Of a stretch of DNA of 64,000 nt, positions 381 through 32,829 are shown in pieces. The notes under the pieces were generated by a model. That model did not search any database and was not told the origin of the DNA. It saw nothing but the letters and a program-made list of their open reading frames with translations. How positions within the stretch are numbered: position 1 is the first letter of the stretch; the number at the start of each line of letters is the position of its first letter. The translations under genes and the position numbers were made by a program. Source of the DNA: Phoronis australis (Eukaryota > Animalia > Phoronida); assembly GCA_002633005.1 (NCBI GenBank), contig NMRA01000060.1, positions 1,037,355 to 1,101,354 on the forward strand, written 5' to 3'.

Positions 381-2610
381 GCTTCAGTTCACGTGACCCT
401 CCCTTCCGGGTCTTCTGATAACAGTTGTTCCACAACAATAACGACTGCGTCCTGTGACAATACGGCAGTGACTCTTGCAGATGTCAAAACTGAGCTGGAA
501 CGCATGTCGGAGTTGTACAACCAGATGAATACTTTGTTGTCTGCGATGAACGCAAATCTGATGTCGCAGGCTAAAAGTAATGCTGCAAACACGAAGGCTT
601 TCAAACAGCAAATTGTCATGCCTTGCATCGAACGTGGCTGACATTAAAACTAAGGTTACCGAAATTGACAATCTAAATTCCCTCATTTCAAACAATGGAA
701 ATAAACTGGACCGGATTTTGAACACGAGTAGGCTTACACAAGATGAAGCCAAAAGACATCAAGCACAGGCTACAGCTGCTCATGAAAAACAACAGATGGC
801 GCTCGATTATCACACGTCAAAGCTAGATTCCTTGAGCCAATGTTTTTGCCGTAAGGGTAAGTGTTTTTAAAAGTTCTCAGAACGTCACGATTAATACTTT
901 AACTCTTCTAATCACCGGGAAAAATCTATTATGAACCGGCTAAGGTACCAACGTCGCTGTGTATTTTTGAGTCTGGAATGACACCAAGTTACTGGCGACG
1001 GGGTGGAATTTTGAAACTTGTGACAATTGGGGAACAAAACTTATTAACAACAGGTACACAAACAGTTGTGGTCCATGGCGTTTCACATCAAATTTTCATG
1101 TGCCTACTCAATAATTTTGCTTGCCTCCCGACCTGCAAAGGATTTTCGTTCAATGATATATATGAACCTACACCACGTCTTCCTGAAAATATTTTAGCAC
1201 TCCGGACCTGCGTTTTTACAGATAGGCCTACTAAACCCTTTGAAAATTTTGTAGTCACGCATTATTGTGCTGGATATTAAAAAATATATTCGAAGTTAGA
1301 CCCGATGTGGTAAATGAGAAATGGAGCTTACCGTCGGAGAAAATTTTTACTTGAAGTTCATTTAATACCTTAGTAAGTTCACAAAAGACCCTAACCAAAA
1401 ATTGGATTGTTTAGGTTTAGACTAGTATCCAGGAATACTGCGGCATATGCCTTCTTAGACAAAATTTAGATAAGAGATAACTGCCAATGGACGGTTCCAA
1501 CAAACCCGTCTAATCCACGCCTACCATAGTTACCGTGGTTGAAGTGAATGTGAATGAATGTCCTCTGTGTACTTTCTGTATTTATTTTAGTTTATCGTAG
1601 AAGTTGAAATGTTCTTTTATAATCCTAATTAACCCTTAAAATTTTGGAACAGAATTGGAAACTCCGATAAATGTTTTTTTTTTTTTGATTGTCAAAGGTG
1701 ACTAAGGCATTTGGCAAGCTAATTGACGGTCGTAGGGAAAGACTCTCAGTCATACGACAAATTTGTAACAAAACGATTAAATTTTCAGATGAATGATGAA
1801 TTTTCTCTCTCGGGAAGTACCAATGATAAAATAGCGGGTGCTGAATTACAAACCAAATTTCAATGTGAAATCGCCTCAGCAGGACTATCGTATCCCTTAC
1901 TGTATTACTCCGCAAATAACCGCATGCCACTCTATGCGGAACAATGAAGTTTTTCCGCAAGATTTTTCCATTCAGATGTACTGCATACAGGCGCGTGAGT
2001 TACGCAATTAGGGCCATACGGTGGTCCTATAATAGGCACGCTTTATTTTTTAAATACACCACCGAACCATTTTACTCCACACATTGTGTAGTGTCAGTGA
2101 CACCCTCAGCAAAAAAAAAGGTTAACAAATTGTTAAATACTAAAAATATACAGTTTTAAAACTCATAGCTTTATTTTTAACAAAGCTTGATCGTCGATAA
2201 AATAACACCGAGTTCCTTTGCCGTAGTTCCACTCAAATGTCCCGCAATTAAGCGTCGCTCCACAATATAGGCCTATGCGCTCAATTGCGGGGCTACGTGG
2301 TAAGGAAATACAAATGATTTATTATAGTTATTTGTTTTCAGTTAAAGTGTTTCACGTGGTGCATCCTGAAGGTGGCTATAAGTTCACTTTCGAGCAAGCT
2401 AAAGCCGCGTGCCAGGCGAAAGGGGCAGTGCTTGCCACACCGGTACAACTCGAGGTAGCCTGGAAGATGGGGTATGAGATGTGCGCTTGTGGCTGGCTCA
2501 GTGACCGAAGTGCGCGTTATCCGATGCATTTCGTACGCCGCGGATGTGGAGGAAGTAGACCGGGAATATCAACTTGTTCGAATCAACTGAACGATGCCTA
2601 CTGTATTTGA
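381..2610 (+). pseudogene. Copy A of coiled-coil + Link-domain gene: exon 2 (381-856) and exon 3 (2342-2610). Exon 1 lies upstream of the window. A +1 frameshift at about 603-606 gives a premature TGA at 639-641
   Basis: Acceptor tttattttag|GCT at 380/381, donor AAGG|gtaagt at 856/857 (phase 1), acceptor ttgttttcag|TTAAAGTG at 2341/2342. Exon 3 encodes a Link module (VFH..YKFTFEQAKAAC..GAVLAT..QLE.AW..GYEMCACGWL.D....YP......CG.....DAYC). TTC AAAC AGC here versus TTC ACT AGC in intact copy C splits exon 2 into ORFs 393-641 and 580-870. Confidence 0.85.
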
Positions 2611-3149
2611 TTTTCATCACCATACGGATATCCACTGGTCCTTTAATTTGATCAATAGTGAAACTTCTACAAGCAACTGAGTGGTAGACCATTGACTCGG
2701 AAATCGACCACGAGGTAGCAGCACTGTTGAGGAAACTGTTTAATTTCAATCAGACTGGTGCCATTCTCGCTTTTCTGGTATTCTATCGGGTCGCGTTTTC
2801 GCTACTTTGATATAAACTTGGGATACTTGTTAAAGATTAAATGTGTATAGAAATGGGGTGGGCGATTACTATTTTGCTTGGTATAAATATCGGTCTGATA
2901 GGCCTACCCTACACAGTTGATGCTGTCCGATGAGAGCGCTCTGATCGAGGAGCGACACTTACGAAATCGAATTAAAATTTGCAGCCAAGAGGTGAGGTAG
3001 ACTACGAAACCAAGTTAACCAACAACCACGACCTCGACGCCTGTTGCACAGGCGTCCTCAGCTTCTGATCGTATCCAATACACTGTATAAAATACTACAA
3101 GGTATGACATTCCGGACTAGAAATTCCACGGGTGCTTCACTTCAGCCGT

Positions 3150-3842
3150 TCATAGCAAACATAAAACTCAATAAATTTACATAAAACAGAGGTTCAACAA
3201 ACCGTGAGGAATTGTTTGTTCTCCCAATACCATTTACGGTCTCCTGCTCAACCGAGTTGGGGGAACTTTGAACCGGCACTATAGATGGCGCTGTAATTGT
3301 CTCCCTAACAGGAACTTCTTTCTCATCCGAATTGTGCTACTAACAGAGCCAGACATTTGCCTCACAGGCTGACTACCAGCAAACTCCACAGGTAGCGCTG
3401 ACTTGAACATCACAGGAACAGGTCTAGTAATTTGTGTAGAGGTTTTAGTCGTCGTCGAATGTCCACTGACATACTTTGTAGGCTGTTGACCTTGACCTTG
3501 CCGATAGGACGCGGGCAACGTGGATGATGGCCGGGGAAAAGCGGGTGAATCGTTGATGCCACCATCTTGGGCAAGATTTCTGGGCATTGTACCTCGATGC
3601 TCTGAACATGTGGGCCAGCGGAACCATCCGTGTACGAGAACTTCATCTGAGAAAACTGCACGCGGCTGTACAAGCCCTCTTCATCTCCTGTTGACAGACG
3701 TGGGGGGCGAGGTGGGACAGGGGGTGGTCCCTGATGCGGCTTATACAACCGCTTCAGTTCCTTAAACTGTTCGAAATGCACAGAGGACGTTGTCTAGTCT
3801 TTACTGGTTCGTGGTACTATCCGAAACTGTTACAATCATGCT
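3150..3842 (-). pseudogene. Degraded exon-like segment encoding a Pro-rich low-complexity sequence (PPPVPPRPP, EEGLYSRV), broken across frames
   Basis: Minus-strand acceptor ttcttgtctttattgtttcag ending at 3843. GC-richer than its flanks. Overlapping ORFs 3410-3781 and 3279-3587 are in different frames with stops. Parent gene not recognised. Confidence 0.4.
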
Positions 3843-5982: not shown

Positions 5983-6467
5983 GGCTCTTTCACACTAACG
6001 TCGACGCATAGATGTTTTGGGGGAGTTGCGGTCAGTATGAACGGTTAACTTGGTCCTGGATCAAAGTTAACAGTGCCAGTTAACTTTGCAGTAAACAGGT
6101 GGATTTAACAGTGGAGCGTCGACGCTGCACTGCGGTATGAATGGTCAACTTCGGTCCCATTGAAGTTATCGCCAGAGCCACTGTTCTCATCAACAACTAA
6201 AGAGCAGTGACATCACTAACAGCAGCTCATATTTTGCTCGAATAATCACCAATCTAAATAAGATTGATGCCAATTAGCACATGTAGATGTTCCCAAATTG
6301 TTTCATTAAAAAGTCTGAGCGTGCAGCGCTACCTTGTGATAACTTCAAAGACGACAGCATCACCTACAGTTTACTTCGATGTTTGTTTACTGCCGAAACC
6401 GGTATGAAAGGTTCAGTTAACTTCGCAGTTTACGTCGACGCTCCACTCAGACCGGAGTGAAAGGGCC
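5983..6467. mobile_element. Non-autonomous DNA transposon (MITE, probably PIF/Harbinger-like); second copy at 51906-52409
   Basis: Termini GGCTCTTTCAC...GTGAAAGGGCC flanked by TTAA on both sides. Internal repeated gtcgacg/gtatgaacggttaact motifs. Aligns end to end with 51906-52409. Confidence 0.75.
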
Positions 6468-7374
6468 TTAAGGCATTTTGTAAAACTGTGGGCACTCACA
6501 ACAATGTCATTAAAAGACCGCTAAAAATGAAAACAGGGCAATTTTTTTCTTTATAAAATTTGTGAGATTTCCCGGTGATAAGTATGTGTTTTCAACACAG
6601 AATCCTTGCAAAAGCAGATTTTCAAATTACAAGTTCCTCAAAACAAGACCAAAATAAAATGGCATTAGTAATAAATCACTTACAGCACAGACACTAAACA
6701 TCCAGTCCAGTTCTCTCTTCCATAACAAGTGGCGGAGACGATCAAAAATATCTGTAAATTATGTTGTCATCATAATAGCCACAGGATATCCTTGGTTCAT
6801 ATAGATTCATTCAAGTAAGTCAGGCAAACGCATTTTAATTAATAATCCACTGGTGCCACCTGCCGCCCCGAAGTGTTGTACCAGAGGGTCCCAGTTCAAT
6901 CCCGTCCTGCAGCCATTCTGTTATTGCTTATGAATTTCTGTAATTACATTACGTTTCGTCTCTTATAGTTGCTAAACGTATTTGAAACAGAACATTCTAG
7001 AAACCATGTGTAGTTTGTTGCAACAAGAGGAGGGTTACATATATCAAACCTGACCAATATCAGTGGCGTTGGCGCATTGGATTTTGGAATTAAATGCTGA
7101 ATGACGTCAATATGAACATGTGTCTTAACACGCTACGCAATATTGCCACAAGTTAAACTTTAATAATTCTGCTAAAACAAATGACTGCCTAAATGTATTC
7201 CGATAAACACAATATACATTCATTGACTGACCTTGGTGCATTACAAGCTTCAGAGTGTAAGACATATCAAATCCAAATAGAAAAAATATTTTACAAAGAG
7301 TTCGTCTAACCCACTTTTTAGACGAAGTACAGGCTCTATTTCCTATTTTTGGTTATACTAATTGTCGTATCTTG

Positions 7375-9615: not shown

Positions 9616-9621
9616 TATAAA
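9616..9621 (+). promoter_or_regulatory. TATA box of copy B
   Basis: TATAAA 70 bp upstream of ATG 9686, conserved at the same spacing in copy C (20646-20651). Confidence 0.65.
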
Positions 9622-9685: not shown

Positions 9686-12600
9686 ATGGCGTCTCTTTGT
9701 TTGTCAGTTCTCGCATTATTGGTAAGTACTGAAAGAGAGTTTATGTTCACGTTTTATGTCGTTAGAATAAATTCACCAAGCTGACGTCTGCTGAATTCTA
9801 CGGGTGGTCGCCAGAGCACAGTCAACAGGGTGTGGAAGGACCTTTTCCTATATATAAATGAGCATAAATTCACATTTATATTATCTTGTCGCCTTAGTTC
9901 GAACTTTCACTTGTTGGGACTTCGAAACAGCGCTTAGTTATGTATAACTTTAAAAAGTGGCATCACCGGCGAGAAAAGCGATTTTCTAAAATTAAGCCCC
10001 AGCGCGGAAGCGATCCTGTAAACTTTGCGTTCATAGCAAAACGCTCTGCTGACGCGCTAAACCGTACCCAATAAAAAACAAATGAGTATTTTAAACGTAA
10101 TTAATTGGTAAAAGTGACCGGCCTCGAATTGGCGAAGGGCCGGTAGACGTTGACGAGAAAGAATGGGCGGTATGTTATGAAAGCACAAAAATAACGGGTT
10201 TTGTTGATTTTTAGCTCTGGTTGGTCAAACCTGCAGAAACCTCGTTACGTATGGCAGCACTTGAATAAGTATCCACAATGCATGAGCCAGCTGTAACTCA
10301 CTACTGTGGCCATTTTAGGTGGTAGCACACTTCCAAAAATAAAAGTTTAAAACCAAAAAAATCCTATTAAATTCAATTAAGTTTGAAAAAAGTGGAGTTG
10401 TGTTGAACGAGAATTATTTGTTTCGACTGAACTAACTAGCGTGAAAATTCGTTTTATGAGGTTTTTAACTAAAATTAATCGGAAATAGTATCTTTAGTAA
10501 CCTCCGAAGTGAGTCGGCCCTTAAAATATTTCCCGTTTCGTAATCGATACTGAATGACAGCACGTGAATGTTCCTTGCTGAATGTTCGTACCATGAACAT
10601 CCGCACTGCTAATAACCTGCAAACATGTATCTGGTCACGCAGCTTACTGTACAGTAGCTTGTGTAGTCGAGGAGATAAACATGTAAACGGAAGGTTCTGG
10701 AGTTTATCTGTGCATCAAATTCATCGAAACGGAAGAATGAGACAGACGCCTTCTAGTGATAGATTTCCTGCTACCCAAAAAACAAGGATACCACACTCAT
10801 GAACAAAGTTAATGAACACGGCTCACCGAACGCTATGATAATGAGTTTTGACCCTGCGATAAATGTTTTTCAACAGAGTGGATACTTAAGGATAATGCCA
10901 CCCAAAAAAAAACAACCTAGTTTGTATCAATTTAGATCGAGTAGTTCCACTCGATAACAGCAAGTACAGCTCTTTTACCTGACACCTGACGGCAGGTGGA
11001 GATGTTGAAATTAACCAATGACGTCAGAGGTTCGAACTCAGTCTGTTCAGCAGTTAACACTCTTACTGGTGTCAGCTTATCGCTTGAATTCACCGTTTTA
11101 CATCAATAAATCATCAAAATTCAATCAAAAACCTTTACAAATACACCGAGTTATTGAACAAACGTGTTATTTCATTTCGCTGTTGCGGATTTTTAGGTAT
11201 TTGAACGTACCGTAGCCTACAAAGTTCGGTAGGCCAATTTACCGTGACTAAGGTTGGTCAGGGGAGTTTGGGGTCTGTTCGGTGATAAATTCAAATTATT
11301 CGTCCGTGAAATACAGACAGGAGAAAATAGCTGTGTGTTGTAATTTTTGACGCGATTTTTCAGTTCTAAACACACAAAACGCTTGCTATCCCGGCCAGTT
11401 GCTCAAAACCCGATGAGGCCCACATCGCCGCGGCCGAACTGGAGACATCACGAGCATAAACCAGCCAAAGTTAAAAACTAAACTAGACTATACTAGTGAG
11501 CCACAGAAAAAAACTGCACGTGATTGTTTTGGTAAATTAGCCGCGAAACTGCAAATCTACTTACTATCTCGTCGGGGTTCGCGAAGTCAGTTTTCCCTTC
11601 CACAGAACCGTCAGAGCAAACGTTGTACAGTAACATGTGTATGAATAACTAAATAAATATTCCCCTAATATCTGACCATAGGATATCAAGTCGAATTGTT
11701 GCGTTTCACAAAAGCTTTATGTCAGGAAACACTGCATCAGAATGCGCTCGCACGGCCTCGGTGCCCGGTCATTTAGTTTAAAGCCGGTACTAAAACGCAG
11801 TGATTTATTCATTGCCGGCTTTTCAAAACATTTGCACTCACGAACACTCCAATGCATTACAAATTGTATCTAATGAGAAAGATTCCGTTTCAGTTTTATT
11901 TAAGCATTGGTTAGGGTGAGAATAATTCATTTTGAAACAGAACGTACAATAAGAAACGTGAACTCGCAATCCCGACTTAGACGAGTGCTCATCCGACGAA
12001 CTGACTTCACAAGTTAATCGTTAGGTTTCACAGGCTATCAGTTCGAACCGGAATACACTGACCAACAAATAATAGAGAGGATCTGCGAATCTACACAGAC
12101 AACGGAACATATGGATAGTTCCGAAAACCGTTTGAATGACTTGTCATGATGTCAGTGAGCTAACCATGCACGCACCAAGCCTAAAATATAGGGGGACTCG
12201 AATTTTTCGGTGTGCACACCTTTTACTGACAAAAAATCTACCAAAAAACTAGGTTCAGGCATGCGCGCAGAATTCATGTGGAGATTTTGTGAACTTTTGG
12301 ATGCATTGTGTTCACTCCTAAATTCAAATTCAACTTCGTCCCAACTCGCGGCGTATCAAACCAGTTAACGATGTAGCAGGAAAAGACCGCCCAAGGTGAC
12401 ACGCAACAAACCTAACTGAAATATGAAACTCAGCCTCCCATAGTCATCGTCAATTTTACACCACCAAAACACCCACTTGACACCAATTTTGTGCCCCCTC
12501 CATCGATTCTCAGGCATCTCCCAATCCAGTCGTTACCAGTTTCTCGCGGCCAGTCCCACACAGACTATTGCTGTTGATTACAACCTGAACAATGACGCCG

Positions 12601-15600
12601 CCGAAGACAACCACAATGTCCACTACACCGAAATGCGACTGAGGTGGAAGGCGTTGCTCTGACAAGAAATAATTATGTAAAACGTATTAAGGTCAAATTT
12701 TTGTGCCATAGAACCAGAAAAACAGATTAAATTGCAATTCAAAGTGAGTCTCTACTACTGAAACAGAGGTGAAACTGTTCACCAAGCATTTTTACGGTTT
12801 CTTCAAGAATATTTGGAATTGATGTTCAGGTTAAAGCATTTCTCCTTTAGTTTCAAATTTCAAAAAAAAACGCTATGTTAACTACTCGTCACTTCGTCGA
12901 TTTTTTTTCCAAAAATTCTTTCGGTATTCAAAGTGAATAACTCTTCGTTAGCATCCCAAGTAGTTATTTTTACGAGATTTAGCGTTCCGTGCCTCTTTCT
13001 TAGTGACACAAGACTTAAACATCTCATGTCGCTTTCATAAAGCAGACCTCTTCAGTAATTTATCCATGGGAATGTGAAATAAATTCATCTTCAGAATCTT
13101 TGTTTTCTCAACTATGTCTTTTGTTTCTTCCTCGGTCATTCCCTAGCAACACATCTGTCAGCTCACAACTACTCACATTTGCGCATGCACCATAACTTAC
13201 TTCCCACGGCTCATACTCTAGACGTCACTGATATCGTGACCAATCTAGTGGGTCTGTGGAGGAGACAGAGTTGGACCAAAGAAATAACTTAATTGGTAAT
13301 TAACAACTACAGCGGATTTCCGAAAGAATTCCTTGGGAGTTTTTCTTTAACAAGGCCGGCGTGCGTTCCGTCGGCGCGACAACCTCGCGAAAACGCAAGT
13401 GCACTTAAAACGTCGTGTGATATCGCGAAAGCGAAGCATGTGATCGCTCTTGCTTGCTTCGCAAGATTCTTGCGTCTGAGCAACATAGCCAAGGTTAGAA
13501 AACTCATATGCTTAGTCTTTCGGGATAGTTTTGCATGCCTGCCAGGGTATACACAAACGGTATGGAATATATGCCAAGTAAGACGAGCGTTTCATGAGGG
13601 AGCTTACATAATATCCTGGTCGCCGAGATTGGAGTGTTGACCAATGAGATGAATTTCGGGCTCACTGTTGTTGACAGTGTTTTCCAAAACTGAAAACCCA
13701 AACGTGTTGGAAGAAGATTTTTTATCAGAACGTGCAGCCCGGAAGTCCTCCCATCATACAGTTGTAGATCGAACTTCAACACTCGGAGATCGGATTACAC
13801 TTCGGTGTACCGAGTAAACATGAATTTAAAGCGGCTGTAAACCAGTCTTACGTCACAAAAAAAAATTGAATTAAACCACTTTCCTTTATGAAATTAGTCT
13901 CAAGTTGTTCCATCAAACAAATAGATGAGATTGGGCTTGGGGAGACCAAATTCTATAAATTGATTTAACATGGCGTGTCTTTTTAAGTGCGCCGAACATG
14001 GCCTACAGGAAAGAAGGACTAACGGTTCTTTGCAATGTCCAGTGCCATGCCGGTCATCTAATAAGAAACTTGAATATATATCCGTAAGAGGTTCAAAGCA
14101 AAAAAATTCGATGAAAAGCAGGTTAATTGCAAGCTGTTGGCTATCTATCTCCGGATTTAAGTGATAGTGAACAAAAACCCTGTTTGTCACTTTAGAATGA
14201 AACTTATAGGTGCATGCCCATATGTGAAAAAACACTTGCAAAAACCTTTTTTGTAAATACTTCAGATGTTGGTTCATGGGCTTAAATACGTTCGTAAATG
14301 GTAGATATAAATATAAACGCAGACACACACAAGGAGTCGACACTTGTTTTCCTGCACAGATGCTTCTCTTTATTTTAGGCTTCAGTTCACGTGACCCTCC
14401 CTTCCGGGTCTTCTGATAACAGTTGTTCCACAACAATAACGACTGCGTCCTGTGACAATACGGCAGTGACTCTTGCAGATGTCAAAACTGAGCTGGAACG
14501 CATGTCGGAGTTGTACAACCAGATGAATACTTTGTTGTCTGCGATGAACGCAAATCTGATGTCGCAGGCTAAAAGTAATGCTGCAAACACGAAGGCTTTC
14601 AAACAGCAAATTGTCATGCCTTGCATCGAACGTGGCTGACATTAAAACTAAGGTTACCGAAATTGACAATCTAAATTCCCTCATTTCAAACAATGGAAAT
14701 AAACTGGACCGGATTTTGAACACGAGTAGGCTTACACAAGATGAAGCCAAAAGACATCAAGCACAGGCTACAGCTGCTCATGAAAAACAACAGATGGCGC
14801 TCGATTATCACACGTCAAAGCTAGATTCCTTGAGCCAATGTTTTTGCCGTAAGGGTAAGTGTTTTTAAAAGTTCTCAGAACGTCACGATTAATACTTTAA
14901 CTCTTCTAATCACCGGGAAAAATCTATTATGAACCGGCTAAGGTACCAACGTCGCTGTGTATTTTTGAGTCTGGAATGACACCAAGTTACTGGCGACGGG
15001 GCGGAATTTTGAAACTTGTGACAATTGGGGAACAAAACTTATTAACAACAGGTACACAAACAGTTGTGGTCCATGGCGTTTCACATCAAATTTTCATGTG
15101 CCTACTCAATAATTTTGCTTGCCTCCCGACCTGCAGAGGATTTTCGTTCAATGATATAAATGAACCTACACCGCGTCTTCCTGAAAATATTTTAGCACTC
15201 CGGACCTGCGTTTTTACAGATAGGCCTACTAAACCCTTTGAAAATTTTGTAGTCACGCATTATTGTGCTGGATATTAAAAAATATATTCGAAGTTAGACC
15301 CGATGTGGTAAATGAGAAATGGAGCTTACGTCGGAGAAAATTTTTACTTGAAGTTCATTTAATACCTTAGTAAGTTCACAAAAGACCCTAACCAAAAATT
15401 GGATTGTTTAGGTTTAGACTAGTATCCAGGAATACTGCGGCATATGCCTTCTTAGCCAAAATTTAGATAAGAGATAACTGCCAATGGACGGTTCCAACAA
15501 ACCCGTCTAATCCACGCCTACCATAGTTACCGTGGTTGAAGTGAATGCGAATGAATGTCCTCTGTGTACTTTCCGTATTTAATTTTATTTTATCGTAGAA

Positions 15601-20645: not shown

Positions 20646-20651
20646 TATAAA
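20646..20651 (+). promoter_or_regulatory. TATA box of copy C
   Basis: TATAAA 70 bp upstream of ATG 20716, conserved with copy B. Confidence 0.65.
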
Positions 20652-20715: not shown

Positions 20716-20751
20716 ATGGCGTCTCTTTGTTTGTCAGTTCTCGCATTATTG
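20716..20751 (+). CDS. Copy C exon 1 (MASLCLSVLALL, first part of the signal peptide)
   Basis: AAGATGG start context, donor TTG|gtaagt (phase 0). Identical to copy B exon 1 and in frame with exon 2. Confidence 0.8.
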
Positions 20752-21600: not shown

Positions 21601-22063
21601 TAATAAAGCGTAGCTTAAAAATGGTTCCAGGTGATCAGTGCAATGGGCTCAATTGAGCGGCCTACGCACATATATGGTACAACGTGTACCAGACCGCCTG
21701 CAATGAACAATAATTATTTTCGTCACTCGAAAGATATCACTAACACATTTCGTAACTTTGAGCCCTGTTTGCGTTTGCCGTATTTTGCTGTCAATTTTGT
21801 TAACTTTTTAAATAGTGGGTGGGGGTTTCTGCAGAAGTGGCGGCTGTTGAATAACTACTCATAATGTATGAGTGGGCTGTCACTCACTACGGTGGCCATT
21901 TTAGGTGGTGGTACACTTCCAACAATAAAAATTCAAATAAAAAATCCTGTTAAACTCAGTTAAGTTTGAAAGTATTGGGGTTGTGTTGAACGTAATATAG
22001 TTTCGGCTGAACTAACTAGCGTTGAAATACTTCTCATGAACACGAAAACAACAACGGTTTTAA

Positions 22064-22111
22064 AACTTGACATGTTTCGGTGTCAATTATTAAATACCAT
22101 CCTCAGAAGTC
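22064..22111 (-). ncRNA. Minimal hammerhead ribozyme in the inverted pLTR (one stem II mismatch)
   Basis: Minus strand reads GACTT-CTGAGGA-T-GGTATT..GACACC-GAAAC-AT-GTC-AAGTT. Confidence 0.65.
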
Positions 22112-23516
22112 ATAATACAGTGGCCACCTAGCTAGGCCCAGCAACAAGTAATGAAGCTCAGACACAGTCAGTTACAGGGAGTGACAATGAACTAGACCAA
22201 CAATGACAACCTGTGGTGTGTCAGTTGCCTATTGAGATTGGTCTTGCACCAACTGATATATAAAGCCTCACGAATTTTAAGCTCCTTTGTTGTTACTGCC
22301 TGATCTATTATTGCAAAGTCATTGAAAGAGCACTGCTGATAACAATGATTGGAGCTCTGCAGGTGAATATTTACATGTGAATTACTGTCAGAATTTAGAT
22401 GTTCCTTGGTCCTGGTTTTCAAATGGCGAANNNNNNNNNNNNNNNNNNNNNNNNNNNNNNNNNNNNNNNNNNNNNNNNNNNNNNNNNNNNNNNNNNNNNN
22501 NNNNNNNNNNNNNNNNNNNNNNNNNNNNNNNNNNNNNNNNNNNNNNNNNNNNNNNNNNNNNNNNNNNNNNNNNNNNNNNNNNNNNNNNNNNNNNNNNNNN
22601 NNNNNNNNNNNNNNNNNNNNNNNNNNNNNNNNNNNNNNNNNNNNNNNNNNNNNNNNNNNNNNNNNNNNNNNNNNNNNNNNNNNNNNNNNNNNNNNNNNNN
22701 NNNNNNNNNNNNNNNNNNNNNNNNNNNNNNNNNNNNNNNNNNNNNNNNNNNNNNNNNNNNNNNNNNNNNNNNNNNNNNNNNNNNNNNNNNNNNNNNNNNN
22801 NNNNNNNNNNNNNNNNNNNNNNNNNNNNNNNNNNNNNNNNNNNNNNNNNNNNNNNNNNNNNNNNNNNNNNNNNNNNNNNNNNNNNNNNNNNNNNNNNNNN
22901 NNNNNNNNNNNNNNNNNNNNNNNNNNNNNNNNNNNNNNNNNNNNNNNNNNNNNNNNNNNNNNNNNNNNNNNNNNNNNNNNNNNNNNNNNNNNNNNNNNNN
23001 NNNNNNNNNNNNNNNNNNNNNNNNNNNNNNNNNNNNNNATGATTACTGTGTGAACTTAAGAGTTGTATTAACATTCAAGTCTCTAAAACTGTCGAGTTTA
23101 TTTAACCCTAAGGACAAAATTTCTATGGGTCTACGGTCCAAGGTTGTATACAAATTTATCTGTGCTGGATGTGGCTCCAGTTATATAGGCGAAACTGTTC
23201 GCCATTTGAAAACCAGGACCAAGGAACATCTAAATTCTGACAGTAATTCACATGTAAATATTCACCTGCAGAGCTCCAATCATTGTTATCAGCAGTGCTC
23301 TTTCAATGACTTTGCAATAATAGACCAGGCAGTAACAACAAAGGAGCTTAAAATTCGTGAGGCTTTACATATCAGTTGGTGCAAGCCCAATCTCAATAGG
23401 CAACTGACACACCACAGGTTGTCATTGTTGGTCTAGTTCATTGTCACTCCCTGTAACTGACTGTATCTGTGCTTCATTACTTGTTGCTGGGCCTAGCTAG
23501 GTGGCCACTGTATTAT

Positions 23517-23564
23517 GACTTCTGAGGATGGTGTTTAATAAATGACACCGAAACATGTCAAGTT
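23517..23564 (+). ncRNA. Minimal type I hammerhead ribozyme in the Penelope pLTR
   Basis: Stem I GACTT/AAGTT, core CTGAGGA, stem II GGTGTT/GACACC, core GAAA, palindromic mini stem III ACATGT, cleavage triplet GTC. This matches the known PLE-associated minimal hammerhead layout. Confidence 0.8.
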
Positions 23565-25348
23565 TTAAAACCGTTGTTGTTTTCGTGAACATATGCTGTT
23601 ACTTGCTATCATGGACTTCTCATGAAGTTTTTAACTAAAATGAATCGAAAAGAGTATCTTTAATAACCTCCGAAATAAGACTGCCGTTTCGTAATCGATA
23701 CTGAATGACTGCACGTGAATGTTCCTTTCTGTTACCGGAATGTTCGTTCCATGAACGTCTTCACAGCTAATAATCTGCTAACATACGTCTGGTCATGCAC
23801 TGTAGCATGTGTAGTCGAAGAGATAAGCATGAATCGGAGGGTCCTTGCGCACCAAATTCATCGAAACGGAAGAATGAGAGAGTCGCCTTTCTGTGACAGA
23901 TTCCAGGCTACCCAAAAGACACGGATACCAAACTCACGAACAAAGTTACCCACTCGAAAACACGACTCACGGACCTGATACAACAGTCGCTGACTAATGA
24001 ACAGGGCTCACCGAACGCCATGATAACTGAGTAAGTTTGACCCCGCGATAATGCCCTCTGAATTTTTTTCAACAGAGTCTATGTTAAAGTCATTTTTCAA
24101 CAAATGTTTGAGTGTCAAGTTTTCTAAAGTTTACTGATAAATGAAATTTCGAACCACACTCGCATGAAAAAGTGACTCTCAATAAATTTTTACCCTTTCG
24201 TGCTTTAGGGGAGGTTTAGAAGAAGACTCGCACTCAGGAACGAAACACAAGGGTGTTTCAGAGCAAATATGTTGAATTGCAAGACAATAAACTTCATGTC
24301 TAGACAACCAGAGAGAATTAGCCAAGTTTCGATTCACGATCAAGGCGAGGAGGACTGAGCTTGCGGCAATGAGATGACGGTCGAGAAAGTTGGAGACTAT
24401 CAGATGGATTGCATTGTGTTCACTTCTAAATTCAAAGTCAACTTCGTCCCAACTCGGGTATCAAGTAAGTTAACGAGCGAGCAGGAAGAGACCGCCCGAG
24501 GTGACACACCACAAACGGCGCTAAAATATGAAACTCGGCTTCCCCCAGTCATCTCACCAATTTCACGGCATCAAAACCCCCAATTGACATCAATTTTGCT
24601 CCGCCTCCGTCGCTTTTAGGTCATCTCCCAAGCCAGTCGTTGCCAGTTTCACGTGGCCCATCCCATTCAGTCTACTGCTGTCCATTACAACTCCCAAATG
24701 ATGCCGCCAAAGACAACAACAATTTCGACGACACCGAAATGCGACAGGTGGAAGGCATTGCTTTGATAAGATGAAAATGACGTAGCCTGAACCAAGTCAT
24801 TTCGCGATGCTTTGCTGTAGAAATTTGTTATACGAAGCCGTTGAAAATGAATCCCCCGCTTTGACATTTTCAACTATAGTAGCTGAAAAGTATACAAACC
24901 CAGTGTGGTCATTTCTTCACGGGTTTGATAACTTACAGAATTATTTAAGACCTGTGAAAAAGGCGACGCGGGATCAGCGTTCAAAATTGATTGCAGCTGA
25001 GTCAAAATTTAATCTCACATAACACGATTTGCGCATCCCGAAGCGCAGCCCCGACTCCTAGATGCAATTCAGTGACTGACAAACGGTACACGGGTATGGA
25101 TTCCGTGCCCCATGTATGTGGTTGTGAGTTGAAGAACACGTGTTTCGGGAGCGTATGTCGTGCTTTGGGTCCGACATGCACCGTGCTTGGCGACCGGTGG
25201 GCCTCCTTCGTGTCGGTAATTCTATTTTGAAGATTTGAATCCGTAAATGTAATTCTGCATCACATTGGAAAAATCCGGGGTTGATTACATTTTACTATTT
25301 ATTTGTTTATTCATTTATTTGGAGTCTATCTCATGAAAAGTGACTTAA

Positions 25349-26301: not shown

Positions 26302-28114
26302 TGCCAAGAAATATTTGTACAATGTTTCTCATTAAGTAACAATCACAGATTTATTCTCAGATACTTTATTCTTTTCTAAAATGGGTTTTATTAGTTATTT
26401 TTTACAAATAATTATGTAAAACGTAACATCAAATTTCTGTGACATAGAACGAGAAAAACAAACTAAATTGCATTATTCAAAATGAGTCTCTGCTACTGAA
26501 GCAAAGGTGAAACTGTTTACCAGGTATTGTTACGGTTTCTTCATAAAGATTTGGAATTTCTGTTGATGTCAAAGCATTTTTCCTTTAGTTTCAAATTTGA
26601 AAAAAAACGAGATATTAACTGCTCGTCACTTAGTCGATTTTTTCTAGAACTTCTTGCGGTATTCAACGTGAATAACTCTTAAGTTAGCAACTTAGCATCA
26701 CCAAGTAGATTCGCCGCGATCTGTTTAAAGGTTACTTTTTTACGAGATTTCGCGTTCCATCTCTCTTTTTAGTAACCAAAGACTTAAAAGTCTTAAGTCA
26801 CCTTCATAACCAGACCTCTTCAGTAATTCATCTTCAGAATCTTTGTTTTCTCAACTCTATCTTTTGTTTGTTCATCGGTGCTATCAGTTCCTAGCAACAC
26901 ATCTGTCGGCTCACAACTACTCATACATTTGCGCATGCACCATAACTTGGTTCCCAGGGTTCATACTCTAGACGTCACTGACATCGTGACCAATCTAGTG
27001 GGTCTGTGGAGTAGACAGAGTTCCACCAGGGAAATAAAATTAGTGGTAATTGATAACTACAGCGGATTTCCGAATTAGTTTCTTGTCAGGTTTTCTGTAA
27101 CAAGGCCGGTGTTAGTTCGGTTGATGCGACAACCTCGCGAAAACGCAAGTTCACAAAACACTTTGTGGGATATCGCCCACTTGTTCAAATGCTTCCTTCG
27201 CGAGATTTTTGCAACACATCCAATGTTCGAAAGAACTGCTTAGTTTTGCATACCTGCCAAGGGATATACAAGCGTATGGAAACCATGGGCAAGTAAGACG
27301 AGCGTTTACTGGCCTGCCGAGATTGGTGTGTTGACCAAAAGTGATATCCCGGACACATAGTTGGTGACAGTGTTTTCCACAACTGAAAACCCAAGCGTGC
27401 AGCATGTGCACTAACGTCAAAATTGCGTTTTAAGAGTCTCATAATTCAATTTGAGTAGTGGGGTTAAATTCACGAGATTTTTCGTCGGCACGCAGCCAGC
27501 AAGTCCTCGCATCGTACAGTTGTAAATCGAAATTCAACATTGGGGATTGCACCTCGGTATGAGTTTAAAACGTCTGCAAACCAGTCTTCCGTCACAAAAA
27601 TTTTTGACTTTGAATACTTTCCATTTTAAATTTAGCCTCAAATTGTACCTCACACCAAGTAGATGAGATTTGTGCATGGGCTTTGAAAGACCAGATTCTA
27701 CAATTTTGCGGCGCGTCATTTTAAGTACACCGAGCATGGCCTCTAGGAATGGTGGACTATCAGTTCTTTGCAATGTCCAGTGCCGTGCCGGTCATCTAAT
27801 AAGAAACTTGATTATATATCCGTAAGGGGTTCAAAGCAAAAAAAAAATCGGTGAAAAGCAGGTTAATTGCAAGCTGTAGGCTATCTATCTCCAGATTTAG
27901 GTGCTAGTGAACATAAAAGCAGTGTGTCACGTTAAATGAAACTTAGGTGCATGCCCGTATGTGAAAAACATTTGAAAAAACATTTTTGAAAATATTTCAT
28001 ATGTTGGCCCATAGGCTAAATAGGTTCATATGCGGTAGATATCAATATAAACACTGACACACACACAAGGAGTCGACACTTGTTTTCCTACAAAGATACT
28101 TCTCTTTATTTTAG

Positions 28115-28586
28115 GCTTCAGTTCAAGTGACCGTCACTTCAGGGTCTTCTGATAACAGTTGTTCCACAACAACGACTGCGTCCTGTGACAGTAAGGTAGT
28201 GACCCTTGCAGATGTCAAAACTGAGCTGGAACGCATGTCGGAGTTGTACAACCAGATGAATACTTTGATGTCTGCTATGAACTCAAATCTGATGTCGCTG
28301 GCTAAAAGTAATGCTGCAAATACGAAGGCTTTCACTAGCAAATTGTCATGCCTTGCATCGGACGTGGCTGACGTTAAAACTAAGGTTACCGAAATTGACA
28401 ATCTAAATTCCCTCATTTCAAACAATGGAGATAAACTGGACCGGATTTTGAACACGAGTAGGCTTACACAAGATGAAGCCAAAAGACATGAAGCAAAGGC
28501 TACAGATGCTCGTGAAAAACAACAGATGGCGCTCGATTATCACACGTCAAAGCTAGATTCTTTGAGCCAATGTTTTTGTCGCAAAG
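28115..28586 (+). CDS. Copy C exon 2: end of signal peptide, Cys-x7-Cys, long predicted coiled coil, CFC neck
   Basis: Acceptor tttattttag|GCT, donor AAAG|gtaagt (phase 1). Open 472-bp exon. Heptad-like periodicity (LADVKTELERMSELYNQMNTLMSAMNSNL...LASDVADVKTKVTEIDNLNSLISNNGDKLDRIL). Confidence 0.9.
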
Positions 28587-29091
28587 GTAAGTGTTTTTAG
28601 AAGTTCTCAGAACGCCACGATTAATGCTGTAACTCTTTTAATCACTGGGAAAAAATCTATTATGAACCGGCCAAGGTGCCAAATTCGCCATTTTGTATTT
28701 TTGAGTCAGAAGTGTCACCGTGGTGGCGACGGGGAGGAATTTTCAAAGTTGTGACAATTGGGGGACAAAACTTATTAGCGATATGTACACAAATGGTTTT
28801 GGATCATGGCGTTCCACATCAAACTTTCCTGGTGCCTACTCAATAATTTTGCTTACATCACGACCTGCAAAGGATTTTCTTTGAATGATATATATTATAT
28901 ATGAACCCACATCGCGTTTTCCGGAAAATATTTTAGTACTCCGGACCTGCGTTTTTACAGATACTAAACTCTTTGATACTACAGGTTATAGTCACGCCTC
29001 ATTGTGCTGGGTATTTAAAAATGCATAGTCAAAGTTAGACCCAATATAATAAATGAGAAATGGAGTTTACTCTCAGAGAAAATTTTGCTAG

Positions 29092-31407
29092 CGGGCAAAT
29101 CACAATCAAGGTCCATATTCGGTGGCCACTTTTGGTGAAAAAAGAAGGTTGTCATATGACAGTAAAAGTTGGATTATTTTCAAGTACTATCATTCTATTT
29201 TTGTAAGTTAAAATATATTTGCTCAAGAACCACCGAATAAAATTTTATCGTCAAATCATCACAGTTGTATAAAAGGGTACGTACACTACAACTTGTGGTC
29301 ACAGCCCACTTCTACCAGGCAAAATTTCATAAGGAGGCTGTTGATTTAATACGTTCTTGATCAAATTGAAGAAGTATCACATACTAAAGTAAGAAAAGTT
29401 ATTGCTGTGCTGATCAAGTTGTTCTAAATGATGATACATTGCATATCTTAACACTATAAAATGAGAACTTCTTTTCTTGCAATATGATTCTTACAAAAAG
29501 AAAAGAACAAGTAACTACTTTTTTTTCAAAAATTTTATTGGTACTATTTGCTTAGTTTTCACCACATTCACCACATGGTCAAAGTAGTTAAAGCAATGCT
29601 AGACCCAGTGTTCAACTTGTAAACAGTAAAAAATGGTACTGGTTGGGGGGTACGTACACTACGCACAGTCGATCAACGTCAAATTTTGATTAAGTTACAA
29701 ATGTATGGGATGGTCTGGAGTTTTGTGCTGCCTCTATTTGTTGGTTTGTTGCAAGTTGTCTTGAGAGATAGAGAACCTGCCTCTGCAACATCAGTTGTCA
29801 CGTGTTAAGTACTAGCCAAGTCCTGTGTGGCATTCCATTGCCCACAAATTCGATAGTGTCAATTGTTTTTTTGTCAGACTGGATACATTTTGGAAATATC
29901 AATATTGTTCATGAGAACAGCAGTATGTAAAATACTTGTGGACAATACTTTGAGAGGTTGCAGTTACGTACACAGGGGTACGTACACTACATTTCAATGA
30001 CTTGTCAGGTTTATAAAGAATACTGAATCTACTGGGCGTTAGTTCATTTACCAAATCTATTCAAAGAGAACAAATAAAAAGTACAGTATACATGTGCATA
30101 TCTGTCCGTCATTCTTTGAAAACAGGCACATGTTAAAATATAGGGGTACGTACACTACACAAATGCTAATAGTTCGCTCAAAACAAATGTATTTGTAATT
30201 AATACCCTTTTTAACCTAACATTTTTAATGGAGGAAACTGTCTGTGACAAATGTTACTTACTTACCGTGTAATATTCATGTTTCGTGGTATTTGTTCACG
30301 TCGGGGTACGTACAACACAAGGGTACGTACACTACATTTCAATGACATGCCAGGTTTGTTACTAAATACTAAGGATCTTCTGAGAGTTAGATGATTTACT
30401 AAATCAATTCAAACAGAAAAAATAAAAAGCACAGCATCCATGTGCATATCTGCCATACTTTGAAAATAGGCACAAATGATAGGGGTACGTACACTACATA
30501 AATTCTAATATTTTACTCAAAACAAACGTATTTGCAATAAACACCATTTTAACCTAACATTTTTAAGGAAGGAAACTGTCTATGACCAATGTTGCTCACT
30601 TACCAAGTGATATTTTAATTTTATGGCATTTGTAAACATGGGGGTATGTACACTACAAAAGGGAGTACGTACACTTCATCACTGTTTCTGCATCACATGG
30701 TTACATAATGTTGTATGGCCATTTATTTTTCTTTGATGATAATAAGCACCATGTTGTTATTTAAAAGGCAATAATTTCATTTGCAATGACCATTTGTGTT
30801 ACTGAATTCCACATGGAGGTACGTACACTACATTTTGTTAGCCTTTTTGGCCCATTTTCAATATAGCAGAACCCAGTCAATGTCCGAACTTTTGGTTTGT
30901 TTAGATATTGAATTATTTGCTGTGTTGCCTAAGCTAACATAGTCTGCAGTTCTTTTTATTACAGAGTGTGAACTTTAGTTTTTATCCTTCTTTGCAGTAG
31001 GTGAGGGTTAGAAACATAATTTACAAAATTCGTAACGAGTGCCTGTTTTATGATGAACCCTACCATTTCTCAATGATTAAGCACAACTTCATCTAAGTGA
31101 TTCTGAAAATGACCCATGTTATTCCCAGTCATATCTAAGCAATTGCAAATAATTTTCTTTTCTACTGTTGACACCTTAAAATAGTAATTTTTAGAATGGC
31201 CACTCGTAAATGCATGAAATTCATAGACAAAAACATGCATAAATTTCTCAAACATTGTCTGAATTTGATGAATCTTTTTTTAATTCGCACAACTAAATAA
31301 CTCTTTGCATATGAGATTCAGTTGGCATTTGGTAATTGACCAAAAAAATTATATTAGACCGTAACACAGTCAATTCTCGAATATGGACCTTGATTGTGAT
31401 TTAGCCG
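29092..31407. mobile_element. 2.3-kb non-autonomous DNA transposon with 30-bp TIRs and 3-bp TSD (TAG) in copy C intron 2; superfamily not assigned
   Basis: Left CGGGCAAATCACAATCAAGGTCCATATTCG, right (reverse complement) CGGCTAAATCACAATCAAGGTCCATATTCG. TAG on both sides. Absent from the paralogous introns of A and B. Confidence 0.9.
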
Positions 31408-32560
31408 TAGAAGCTCATTCAATACCTTAGTAAAATCACAAAACCCCTAACATTGGATGGTTTCAGTACAGACTAGTATACAGGAATACTGCGGCAATTG
31501 CCTTTTTAGCCAAAATTCAGGTTGGTGATACTAAGGGACGGTTCCAACAAACGCGTGTAGCCCACGCCTACGATAGCGTGGTGATGTCAGGCGGCTGTTG
31601 CAGACAACGATCTGATTGGCTTGGTTGACATATCGGAGCTATCCATTTACATTTAGTAATGACGTTCAAGAGAAGCTGCCACACATTTCCTGGACTGGAA
31701 AAATTGTGCAGATTTTCGGAATGAAATTGAGAAAAATTGTTACGAACTCAATGTAACTTAGTTACGTAAGAGATGCCCAGTTGAAGCGTATTTGAATGAC
31801 TGTCCTCTGTGTATTTTCCGTATTAAATTCAGTTTGTCGTAGAGATTGAAATGGTGTTTTATAATTCTAATAAACACTCAAAAGTTTGGAATCAATTTGA
31901 AAACTCCCGACAAAGAGTTTTAATTGCCAAAGGTGACTGAACCCTTTGGCAAGTTACTTGACGGTCGTGGGGAAAGTCTCTCACTCATAGGAGCCATTTT
32001 GTAACAAAACGATTAAAATTTCAGCTGAATATTAATTTCTCTCACGGGAAGTACCAATGATAAAATAGCGGGTGCTGAATTACAAACCAACTTTCAATGT
32101 GAAATTGCCAGGACTACCTTTTCCATTACAGTATTACCCCACAAATAAGCGCATGCCCCTATATGCGGAACAGTGAAGTTTTTCCGCAAGATTTTCCAAT
32201 CTGATGTCCCGCATATAGGCGCTATTAGGGGCATACGGTCGTCTGATAATAGACACATCCTGTTTTTTTTTAAATACACCACCGAACCATTTTACTCCAC
32301 ACAGCGTGTAGTGTCAGTGACACTCTGAGAAAAAGTGGTTAAAGAAATTGTGAAATACTAAAAATATGCAGTTTTTAAACTCATACCTTTATTTTTAAGA
32401 AAGCCTTTATCGTCGATAAAATAACACCGAGTTCCTTTACGGTAGTTCTACTCAAATATCCCGCCAATTAGGCGCCGCTCCACAATTAGGCCTATGCGCT
32501 CAATTGCGGAGCTATGCGGTAAGGAAATGCAAATGATTTATTATTGTTATTTGTTTTCAG

Positions 32561-32829
32561 TTAAAGTGTTTCACTTAAGGCACCCTGACGGTTACTATAA
32601 GTTCACTTTCGAGCAAGCCAAAGCCGCGTGCCAGGCGAAAGGTGCAGTGCTAGCCACACCGATACAACTCGAGACAGCTTGGAAGATGGGGTATGAGATG
32701 TGTGCTTGTGGCTGGCTCAGTGACCGAAGTGCGCGTTATCCGATGCATTTCGCATATCCCGGATGTGGAGGGAACAGACCGGGAATAACAACTTGTTCAT
32801 ATCAACTGAACGATGCCTATTGTATTTGA
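32561..32829 (+). CDS. Copy C exon 3: Link (X-link) module and stop codon. Spliced CDS 36+472+269 = 777 nt, 258 aa
   Basis: Acceptor ttgttttcag|TTAAAGTG (phase 1). VKVFHLRHPDGYYKFTFEQAKAACQAKGAVLATPIQLETAWKMGYEMCACGWLSDRSARYPMHFAYPGCGGNRPGITTCSYQLNDAYCI* aligns by eye with the TSG-6/HAPLN Link consensus, including its four Cys. Confidence 0.92.

What the first reader, a model, noticed from the sequence alone, without database searches (positions are those of the whole stretch)
381..32829. Tandem array of secreted 'Link-head collectin-like' proteins: signal peptide + coiled-coil stalk + single Link module
Seen: three head-to-tail paralogues with identical exon phases (0, 1). Intact copy C splices to 258 aa: signal peptide, Cys-x7-Cys, about 130 aa of heptad-like sequence, a CFC neck, and one C-terminal Link module ending at the stop codon. 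Established: known Link proteins (TSG-6, CD44, LYVE1, HAPLNs, lecticans, stabilins) pair Link with CUB, Ig, EGF or transmembrane segments. The Link fold is related to the C-type lectin fold, and 'Cys-linked stalk + C-terminal recognition head' is the layout of oligomeric soluble lectins and ligands (collectins, ficolins, angiopoietins/FRePs). Inference: this is a multivalent soluble glycan-recognition family that uses Link as its head, expanded by tandem duplication as innate-immune or mucus lectins are. I do not recognise a described family with this architecture, and it is the best candidate for an undescribed system in the window.
Basis: partly seen in the sequence, partly recalled or inferred. 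Interest (0 to 1): 0.85.

Follow-up and report, generated by a model that had tools for sequence, protein, structure and literature searches.

The report
Secreted trimeric rod with Link heads
This animal DNA holds three tandem copies (one intact, two frameshifted) of a spliced and transcribed gene whose likely secreted product is predicted to form a three-stranded rod tipped with three Link modules, likely gripping sulfated sugars of the animal's own matrix or mucus, a layout that appears to be shared by many unstudied proteins of lancelets, lamp shells and tube worms.

Summary
Copy C splices (GT-AG, phases 0 and 1) to 258 aa; RNA reads join exon 2 directly to the Link exon (46, 51 and 115 reads in 3 of 3 raw runs) and carry exon 1 in front. 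The Link is real (Pfam 4e-28). The stalk is predicted as one 125-residue helix and as a parallel homotrimer (0.72 against best control 0.00; only three copies tried). Copies A and B share a +1 frameshift. The interpretation needs trimming. It is no collectin (no collagen, no C-type lectin domain). Only 2 of 8 TSG-6 hyaluronan contacts are kept. No sign of immune-type diversifying selection was found (dN/dS 0.41). A secreted protein with one stand-alone C-terminal Link is published for mussels (PMC12383584), whose supplement lists short single-terminal-Link proteins in Lingula (9 of 9), Owenia (12 of 13) and Branchiostoma (18 of 50 rows seen), several with the same six-cysteine Link type. What I found undescribed is the trimeric coiled-coil stalk. 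No earlier scan note holds this family. Verdict: new variant of a known kind, interest 0.4.

The parts
381..856 (+). Copy A exon 2 (N-terminal Cys pair and coiled-coil stalk), frameshifted by one extra A in the A run at 603-605; exon 1 lies outside the window
   Evidence: identical to B exon 2
2342..2610 (+). Copy A exon 3: Link module to stop codon (open in its own frame)
   Evidence: Pfam Xlink E 1.6e-27
9616..9621 (+). TATAAA 70 nt before copy B's ATG (likely TATA box)
   Evidence: function inferred
9686..9721 (+). Copy B coding part of exon 1 (12 codons, hydrophobic signal-peptide-like core), phase 0 donor
   Evidence: identical coding letters to C exon 1
14379..14854 (+). Copy B exon 2, same +1 frameshift (A run 14601-14603); premature stop after 98 codons
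16240..16508 (+). Copy B exon 3: Link module to stop
   Evidence: Pfam E 1.6e-27
20646..20651 (+). TATAAA 70 nt before copy C's ATG; the 5'-most transcript letter seen in one contig would map to about 20659
   Evidence: contigs cannot fix a start, so only compatible
20716..20751 (+). Copy C coding part of exon 1: first ATG, signal-peptide-like hydrophobic core
   Evidence: its last 30 letters are the loose ends of 121, 89 and 186 reads in front of exon 2
24435..24464 (+). 3' end of an alternative upstream exon in intron 1 of copy C (GT donor after 24464), spliced to exon 2 in a minority of reads; its 5' end is unknown
   Evidence: 21 reads in run X2, mapped
28115..28586 (+). Copy C exon 2 (157 codons): Ser/Thr-rich segment with Cys28 and Cys36, predicted trimeric coiled coil 43-167 with Cys91, CFC neck; phase 1 donor
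   Evidence: RNA depth 130-265 on the sense strand
32561..32829 (+). Copy C exon 3 coding part: six-cysteine Link module and stop
   Evidence: Pfam E 4e-28; aggrecan, TSG-6, LYVE-1, CD44 hits in PDB; joint 28586/32561 in RNA
32830..33000 (+). Start of copy C 3' UTR, read through without a listed splice
   Evidence: depth 18-138 in bin 32843-33000; true end not determined

Best explanation
Copy C is a spliced, transcribed three-exon gene for a likely secreted 258-aa protein that is predicted to zip into a parallel three-stranded coiled-coil rod carrying three Link modules at one end, and it likely works as an avidity-driven binder and cross-linker of the animal's own sulfated glycosaminoglycans in matrix or mucus. 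Steps: (1) shown: exon structure, splicing, sense-strand expression, Link identity. (2) predicted: signal peptide from exon 1; 125-residue helix (about 18 nm at 1.5 A per residue); parallel homotrimer. (3) inferred: the CFC neck would lock the three chains just under the heads, and with five non-Link cysteines per mature chain (28, 36, 91, 165, 167) a trimer has an odd number, so trimers could be joined by disulfides into larger bouquets. (4) inferred: three heads side by side turn the weak glycan affinity of a single Link into tight binding of a repetitive polyanion; heparan/chondroitin-sulfate-type ligands are more likely than hyaluronan bound in the TSG-6 way. (5) The array grew by tandem duplication (C versus A/B first, A versus B recently) and A/B are frameshifted in this assembly, while A/B-type transcripts in other animals appear mostly to lack the break.
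For: Splicing and expression: exon 2-exon 3 joint with GT..AG in 46, 51, 115 reads in 3 of 3 raw RNA runs of one study and in a contig of a second study; exon 1 loose ends in 121, 89, 186 reads; strand bias fits a + strand RNA; coding depth about 78-160x per Gb read. Link. Stalk: AlphaFold2 single helix, mean pLDDT 89.3. Homotrimer: ESMFold2 score 0.72, 0.72, 0.71 against best of 3 controls 0.00; runs agree in at least 76% of contacts, partner pLDDT 79; the mark was reached by 21 of 30 microbial homodimers and 0 of 23 monomers, on eukaryotes by 17 of 29 (animals 7 of 16) and 0 of 30 monomers; i-to-i contacts (84-84, 101-101, 104-104, 143-143) mean a parallel bundle. 26 of 36 positions that I picked as core from the contact list are hydrophobic against 21 of 89 others (partly circular). 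Ligand: with the gap-free 1:1 alignment to TSG-6 and the contacts named in PMC3937638, Tyr12 and Tyr59 are kept, but Lys11, Lys63, Arg81 (the three salt bridges), His45, Phe70 and Tyr78 are not; the ascidian Link binds heparin and not hyaluronan (as reviewed in PMC8508827 and PMC12383584). dN/dS of 0.41 (Link) and 0.58 (stalk) between C and B fits purifying selection.
Against: No ligand, tissue or secretion was measured. The Link is only mildly basic (net +3 in C, +4 in B), weak for a heparin binder. Only the three-copy state was modelled, outside the tool's two-copy calibration, and long helices can pass from memory of solved coiled coils (only 1 of 7 eukaryotic homo-oligomers with no solved relative passed); dimer or tetramer is not excluded. 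A plain Fourier test shows only a weak 3.5-residue period (power 1.92). The signal peptide has no basic n-region and was not run through a predictor. The dN/dS values rest on 8-11 synonymous changes and on a frameshifted partner.
Confidence: 0.5

Rival explanations
1. One reading: a soluble innate-immune or mucus-defence lectin whose trimeric Link heads recognise microbial surface polysaccharides and agglutinate or opsonise, as collectins, ficolins and FREPs do.
For: Same layout logic (Cys segment, oligomerising stalk, C-terminal head); tandem duplication with broken copies and mosaic alleles in the reads; loss of the hyaluronan contacts leaves the ligand open; mussel XLINK1 is highest in hemolymph and gill in adults (PMC12383584, section 3.3); 8 of 12 C/B amino-acid changes lie within 2 residues of TSG-6 groove residues.
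Against: That clustering is not significant (p 0.087 at +-2; 1 of 12 at the 14 named sites, p 0.89; 4 of 12 at +-1, p 0.61); dN/dS 0.41 in the head, and the head is not more changed than the stalk (12 of 88 against 16 of 153, p 0.53); only three copies in this window; no collagen or protease-docking part; the measured ligands of Link modules that I read of are host glycosaminoglycans.
Confidence: 0.25
2. A true hyaluronan-binding protein that cross-links hyaluronan through a different set of groove residues, in an invertebrate that makes or meets hyaluronan.
For: Tyr12, Tyr59 and the Cys47-Cys68 floor of the groove are kept; lancelet Links are reported to bind hyaluronan and Owenia has HAS candidates (PMC12383584); vertebrate Links differ among themselves in contact residues (own knowledge).
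Against: All three basic residues that pair with glucuronate in TSG-6 are lost, and Ala49 and Tyr78, which line the pocket, are both cysteines here, likely an extra disulfide. Whether this animal has a hyaluronan synthase could not be checked (no genome held).
Confidence: 0.12
3. The Link head binds a protein (a receptor, chemokine-like ligand or matrix protein) and the rod is a trimeric signalling ligand or structural strut, in the manner of angiopoietins, tetranectin or C1q/TNF-type cytokines; or the stalk forms a dimer, tetramer or filament and not a trimer.
For: The groove has lost most sugar contacts and is weakly charged; TSG-6 Link also binds proteins (own knowledge); only one oligomer state was modelled.
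Against: No receptor or partner is encoded nearby (80 further open frames gave no convincing Pfam family); aromatic groove residues and the disulfide floor are kept.
Confidence: 0.13

Closest known systems
Short single-C-terminal-Link proteins of Lingula, Owenia and Branchiostoma (UniProt entries in Table S1 and File S1 of PMC12383584; uncharacterised)
   Same: 130-340 aa, one Xlink at the very end: Lingula 9 of 9 rows, Owenia 12 of 13, Branchiostoma 18 of the first 50 of 69 rows. The CACG motif with the extra cysteine occurs 21 times in the supplement; 11 of the 13 places shown belong to these three genera and 8 of those to short single-terminal-Link entries. Owenia locus numbers in the Figure S3 legend are partly consecutive (6629-6635, 1958-1959, 23164-23165), which suggests tandem arrays too.
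   Different: Their N-terminal parts were not available to me, so whether they are coiled coils or homologous to this stalk is unknown. No function is published in what I could search.
Mytilidae XLINK1 (Rosani et al. 2025, PMC12383584)
   Same: Signal peptide, no membrane segment, one stand-alone Link at the C-terminal end, secreted by prediction, well expressed, ligand unproven.
   Different: 590-1356 aa against 258 aa; no coiled coil or oligomer is described in the main text read; its Links form a long-branch cluster near CD44/SUSD5; two loci, not a tandem array.
Tetranectin/CLEC3 group (CTLD group IX) and collectins (group III)
   Same: Secreted, trimerised by an alpha-helical coiled coil next to a C-terminal head of the C-type-lectin fold superfamily, to which Link is related (PMC514892 treats Link proteins among CTLD proteins; trimer details recalled). 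Tetranectin, with no collagen, is the closer layout analogue than collectins.
   Different: Head is a Link module, not a Ca2+-type CTLD; no Gly-X-Y collagen region; the coiled coil is far longer (125 residues); no sequence similarity found.
TSG-6, HAPLNs, lecticans, CD44, LYVE-1 (vertebrate Link superfamily)
   Same: Link sequence (E 3e-37 to 1e-4 against 9 PDB sequences), the conserved cysteines, Tyr12 and Tyr59.
   Different: No CUB, Ig, EGF or membrane segment; two extra cysteines at positions 49 and 78; 6 of 8 hyaluronan contacts replaced; multivalency would come from a built-in stalk, not from tandem Links or receptor clustering.
Angiopoietin-like proteins, FREPs, ficolins, C1qDC proteins with coiled coils
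   Same: Cys-linked oligomerising stalk plus terminal recognition head (recalled).
   Different: No fibrinogen or C1q domain; the Fib_alpha Pfam match of the stalk is far below its cut-off (15.2 against 29.9 bits) and reflects coiled-coil composition.

Membership tests
Link module superfamily (Pfam PF00193) | Match to the Xlink profile above the curated cut-off over the whole domain | tested here: met
   98 bits against 27, profile 1-91 of 92
Link module superfamily (Pfam PF00193) | Four conserved cysteines of the two disulfides | tested here: met
   Cys23, Cys47, Cys68 align to TSG-6 without gaps; Cys87 closes the domain
Link module superfamily (Pfam PF00193) | Link fold (two helices, two small sheets) | tested here: inconclusive
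   Single-sequence AlphaFold2 gives the right order of elements but mean pLDDT 54.8; not searched against folds
Hyaluronan-binding Link proteins, TSG-6 type | Lys11, Tyr12, His45, Tyr59, Lys63, Phe70, Tyr78, Arg81 contacts (PMC3937638) | tested here: not met
   2 of 8 kept (Tyr12, Tyr59); all three salt-bridge residues lost
Hyaluronan-binding Link proteins, TSG-6 type | Measured hyaluronan binding | not testable with these tools
   needs recombinant protein
Collectins | Gly-X-Y collagen-like region | tested here: not met
   none in the 258-aa translation
Collectins | C-terminal Ca2+-type C-type lectin domain | tested here: not met
   Xlink is the only Pfam family on exon 3 at E up to 1
Collectins | Trimerising alpha-helical coiled coil next to the head | tested here: met
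   predicted only:
Collectins | N-terminal cysteine segment | tested here: met
   Cys28 and Cys36; interchain bonding not tested
Ficolins / FREPs / angiopoietin-like | Fibrinogen C-terminal domain | tested here: not met
   no such Pfam match on exons 2 or 3; exons 2 and 3 are joined directly in RNA
Mytilidae XLINK1 | Signal peptide plus one stand-alone C-terminal Link, no membrane helix | tested here: met
   (signal peptide by hydropathy only)
Mytilidae XLINK1 | Length 590-1356 aa | tested here: not met
   258 aa
Mytilidae XLINK1 | Link in the Mytilidae clade of the tree | not testable with these tools
   the supplement's alignment could be read but not loaded for a tree
Short terminal-Link proteins of Lingula / Owenia / Branchiostoma (not a named family) | 130-340 aa with one Link at the C-terminus | tested here: met
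   258 aa, Link 170-257
Short terminal-Link proteins of Lingula / Owenia / Branchiostoma (not a named family) | Extra cysteine pair (CxCG before the WL motif and a Cys near position 78) | tested here: met
   Cys49 and Cys78; same pattern read by eye in the passages
Short terminal-Link proteins of Lingula / Owenia / Branchiostoma (not a named family) | Homologous coiled-coil N-terminal part | not testable with these tools
   those proteins were not returned; only their Link parts and lengths are in the supplement

The most novel reading that the evidence does not exclude
This gene is the first recognised member of a widespread, unnamed class of oligomeric soluble Link lectins: across brachiopods, annelids, lancelets and this animal, a six-cysteine Link head sits on a disulfide-locked trimeric coiled coil and serves as a lineage-expanded pattern-recognition or mucus lectin for non-hyaluronan polyanions. 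It would show what Link modules did before hyaluronan and that Link, like CTLD, fibrinogen and C1q heads, was recruited into the stalk-and-head lectin design.
Probability: 0.2. Interest if true: 0.7.

Novelty: new variant of a known kind. Interest (0 to 1): 0.4.

Why it matters
The ligand of the ancestral Link module, before vertebrates coupled it to hyaluronan, is an open question resting largely on one ascidian study. A small, well-expressed, single-domain-head protein with natural trivalency and two divergent paralog heads (86% identical) is an easy reagent for glycan-array tests of that question, and would put a structure on dozens of unannotated invertebrate UniProt entries now mislabelled or unnamed. 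It is not a new mechanism: stalk-plus-head oligomers are a common design of animal secreted proteins.

Tried and rejected
Homologue searches were blank but uninformative: the Link exon found no relative among longer proteins (14 candidates, none scored) or near-length proteins, although UniProt holds 14,579 Xlink proteins (PMC12383584), so these collections cover animals poorly; the stalk gave only 2 hits in 1.84 billion representatives (E 2e-4, 5e-4; 23-28% identity; both long repetitive helical proteins), which I reject as compositional; its blank is therefore no evidence of novelty. ESM Atlas: stalk best 0.77 (leads only); Link best 0.87, Xlink clusters. Foldseek of the stalk against PDB: nothing at E <= 0.001. 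Metagenome and viral contigs: no relative. No genome held, so copy number elsewhere and HAS genes were not checked. Link fold model too weak to use. Diversifying selection at the groove: tested, not supported. A fourth copy or remnant in the window: none. Extra domains spliced between stalk and Link: rejected by direct joints. Find-runs listed no indexed RNA holder on record; raw runs came by species label and were validated by laying. A and B as two alleles assembled in series: considered (exon 2 identical, 95-98% flanks) but not favoured, since no gap lies between them and B has its own first exon and intron, 82-88% like C's; not excluded. Literature searches for the architecture found no paper on coiled-coil plus Link; subscription journals are not covered and Yoneda et al. 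2010 was not held. The matrilin CxC-ring analogy is recalled and was not verified (one search gave one listing, not read).
Full report
What is there. Six-frame translation and self-comparison of the window show three same-strand copies of a gene between 381 and 32829. Copy C has exons at 20716-20751, 28115-28586 and 32561-32829, with GT-AG introns in phases 0 and 1, and translates to 258 aa. Copy B has exons at 9686-9721, 14379-14854 and 16240-16508; copy A has 381-856 and 2342-2610, its first exon falling before the window (only two exon-1 copies are found). No fourth copy or remnant was found by tblastn. A and B are 100% identical in exon 2, 99.6% in exon 3 and 95-98% in gap-free flanks; either is 93.7% and about 90% identical to C in those exons. 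Both carry one extra codon and one extra A in an A run, which stops B's frame after 98 codons. The third exon is a Link module in all three (Pfam Xlink 96-98 bits, cut-off 27; 9 PDB sequences matched, all aggrecan, TSG-6, LYVE-1 or CD44).

Is it transcribed and spliced so? Four public runs of the same species label were laid on 28000-33000 (3 raw RNA runs of one study, 18-19% of each read, and one contig set of a second study whose RNA status is a guess). The joint from 28586 to 32561 (GT..AG) is shown by 46, 51 and 115 reads and by a contig; no listed joint puts another exon between. Exon 1 was outside the stretch laid, but its last 30 letters are the consensus of the loose ends before exon 2 in 121, 89 and 186 reads. 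Depth over exon 2 is 130-265 and almost all first mates lie on the minus strand, as expected for a plus-strand RNA; this is about 78-160x per Gb read. Reads run on through the stop into the 3' UTR. The tissue is not known. A minor form (21 reads in one run) joins an exon ending at 24464 to exon 2. About 23%, 23% and 11% of reads at 28191-28204 carry the A/B-type letters, and a few joint reads show the A/B-type exon end spliced to the Link exon. The +1 insertion is not among the 12 indel rows shown (48 hidden), although rows with 11-17 reads are shown and 30-40 A/B-type reads lie 130 nt away; a contig piece spanning the site has 6 other letters and no gap. I infer that most A/B-type transcripts in those animals are in frame, so the break is an allele, an assembly slip in an A run, or the reads come from a further intact paralog; this is inference from a truncated table.

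Structure. AlphaFold2 on exon 2 alone gives one helix over protein residues 43-167 (mean pLDDT 89.3). Three copies fold in ESMFold2 with score 0.72, 0.72, 0.71 against 0.00 for the best of 3 controls, runs agreeing in at least 76% of contacts, partner pLDDT 79, and with like-numbered residues touching, i.e. a parallel bundle. The tool's counts: 21 of 30 microbial homodimers and 0 of 23 monomers reach the mark; eukaryotes 17 of 29 (animals 7 of 16; 1 of 7 without a solved relative) and 0 of 30 monomers; the job is outside its two-copy calibration and no other copy number was tried. So self-association is supported by a model, the number three less so. A simple period test is weak, probably because the contact pattern shifts register. 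The signal peptide is judged by hydropathy only. Five cysteines lie outside the Link in the mature chain, so some must be free or interchain (inference).

Ligand. The Link aligns without gaps to TSG-6. Of eight hyaluronan contacts named in PMC3937638 (passages read) only Tyr12 and Tyr59 are kept; Lys11, Lys63 and Arg81, the three salt bridges, are lost, as are His45, Phe70 and Tyr78; positions 49 and 78 are both cysteine, likely a third disulfide. The ascidian Link binds heparin, not hyaluronan (PMC8508827, passages; PMC12383584; the primary paper was not held). I therefore favour a sulfated glycosaminoglycan or another polyanion, with the caution that the head's net charge is only +3 to +4. 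From recall, TSG-6 uses Lys20, Lys34 and Lys41 for heparin; Lys20 and Lys41 are kept here, position 34 is not.

Immune or matrix? Between C and B, dN/dS is 0.41 in the Link (11 synonymous, 16 non-synonymous changes) and 0.58 in the stalk; 12 of 88 against 16 of 153 residues differ (p 0.53). One of the 12 changes hits the 14 groove positions named in the TSG-6 paper (p 0.89); 4 lie within one residue (p 0.61), 8 within two (p 0.087), 8 within three (p 0.25). This gives no support, though the numbers are small. Nothing nearby helps: 80 further open frames gave no convincing family. I give matrix or mucus glycosaminoglycan cross-linker 0.5, immune lectin 0.25, hyaluronan binder 0.12, protein ligand or other assembly 0.13.

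Comparison with what is known. Rosani et al. 2025 (PMC12383584; parts 1-4 of 6 of the text read; supplement searched; its figures are images and could not be seen, including the domain cartoons and AlphaFold models of Figures S1-S2, which may bear on whether mussel XLINK1 has coiled coils) report Link proteins in anthozoans, bivalves, Owenia and lancelets, and describe mussel XLINK1 as secreted with a stand-alone C-terminal Link (590-1356 aa). Their Table S1 lists short proteins with a single terminal Link in Lingula (9 of 9 rows, 136-282 aa), Owenia (12 of 13 rows, 147-285 aa) and Branchiostoma (18 of the first 50 of 69 rows, 133-335 aa; my count, Link ending within 20 residues of the end and at least 60 residues before it). 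Corals have similar sizes, but several are labelled with C-type lectin, Apple or EGF domains, so length alone does not show a shared stalk. The CACG motif of this Link occurs 21 times in the supplement; 11 of the 13 places shown map to those three genera (2, one accession, I could not map), 8 to short single-Link entries. The window is thus likely from a marine invertebrate and the head belongs to that six-cysteine type (by eye; no tree). I could not obtain those proteins' N-terminal parts: the protein collections returned no Link relative at all and no real stalk relative, which shows thin animal coverage and not novelty. As a design, the protein works like tetranectin or a collagen-free collectin (PMC514892, passages, for the grouping; trimer details recalled), but it fails collectin and fibrinogen-family membership. 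Eight literature searches (open-access library only) found no paper describing coiled coil plus Link; other papers seen were PMC8260672, PMC3002383, PMC11788884 (passages; nothing on this architecture). Earlier scan notes hold nothing on this family.

Verdict. It is a new variant within a known but barely studied group of invertebrate secreted single-Link proteins, built on a common stalk-and-head plan. The stalk-plus-Link trimer seems undescribed and makes the ancestral Link ligand testable, but there is no evidence yet for an immune role or a new system. Interest 0.4; the boldest reading (a cross-phylum class of oligomeric Link lectins) has probability about 0.2 and would merit 0.7.

Noticed in passing
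window 22041-23587 (intron 1 of copy C): 390-bp inverted repeat (98%) flanking a 608-N gap, each arm holding a GIY-YIG endonuclease-like frame (Pfam E 2.6e-4, just under cut-off): likely a Penelope-like retroelement end or a scaffolding artefact.
   Followed up: partly
window 17954-18922, minus strand (between copies B and C): Broken LINE-like ORF2 tail with a weak zf-RVT match (E 0.024).
   Followed up: partly
window 52851-53132, plus strand: Open frame with a SAM_1 domain (E 8.7e-5, at the cut-off): an exon of an unrelated neighbouring gene.
   Followed up: no
window 24435-24464: Alternative exon spliced to exon 2 of copy C in 21 reads of one run; no ATG in exon 2's frame between the last upstream stop and the donor, so it is a cassette behind exon 1 or a non-signal first exon; the matching place in copy B has an altered donor.
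   Followed up: partly
window 28165-28204 and 28578-32580 in RNA reads: Allele mosaics: run X4 has the A/B-type substitutions in about 30 reads but the extra codon in only 4, and the inserted codon differs from the one in this assembly; suggests gene conversion or more paralogs or alleles than the window shows.
   Followed up: partly
window 29094-31500 (intron 2 of copy C): Repeat-derived stretch read on both strands at depth 5-45, including a 348-bp near-duplication at 29970-30604.
   Followed up: no
window 46691-48352: Nested inverted repeats (74-165 bp arms, 81-85%) and a 97-bp direct duplication around a single N, likely a foldback element with an assembly seam.
   Followed up: no
ESM Atlas result for window 32563-32826: A cluster of 141 Xlink proteins (158 aa) assigned to giant viruses (Nucleocytoviricota) scored 0.81 (lead only); viral Xlink hits are also mentioned in PMC12383584.
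   Followed up: no
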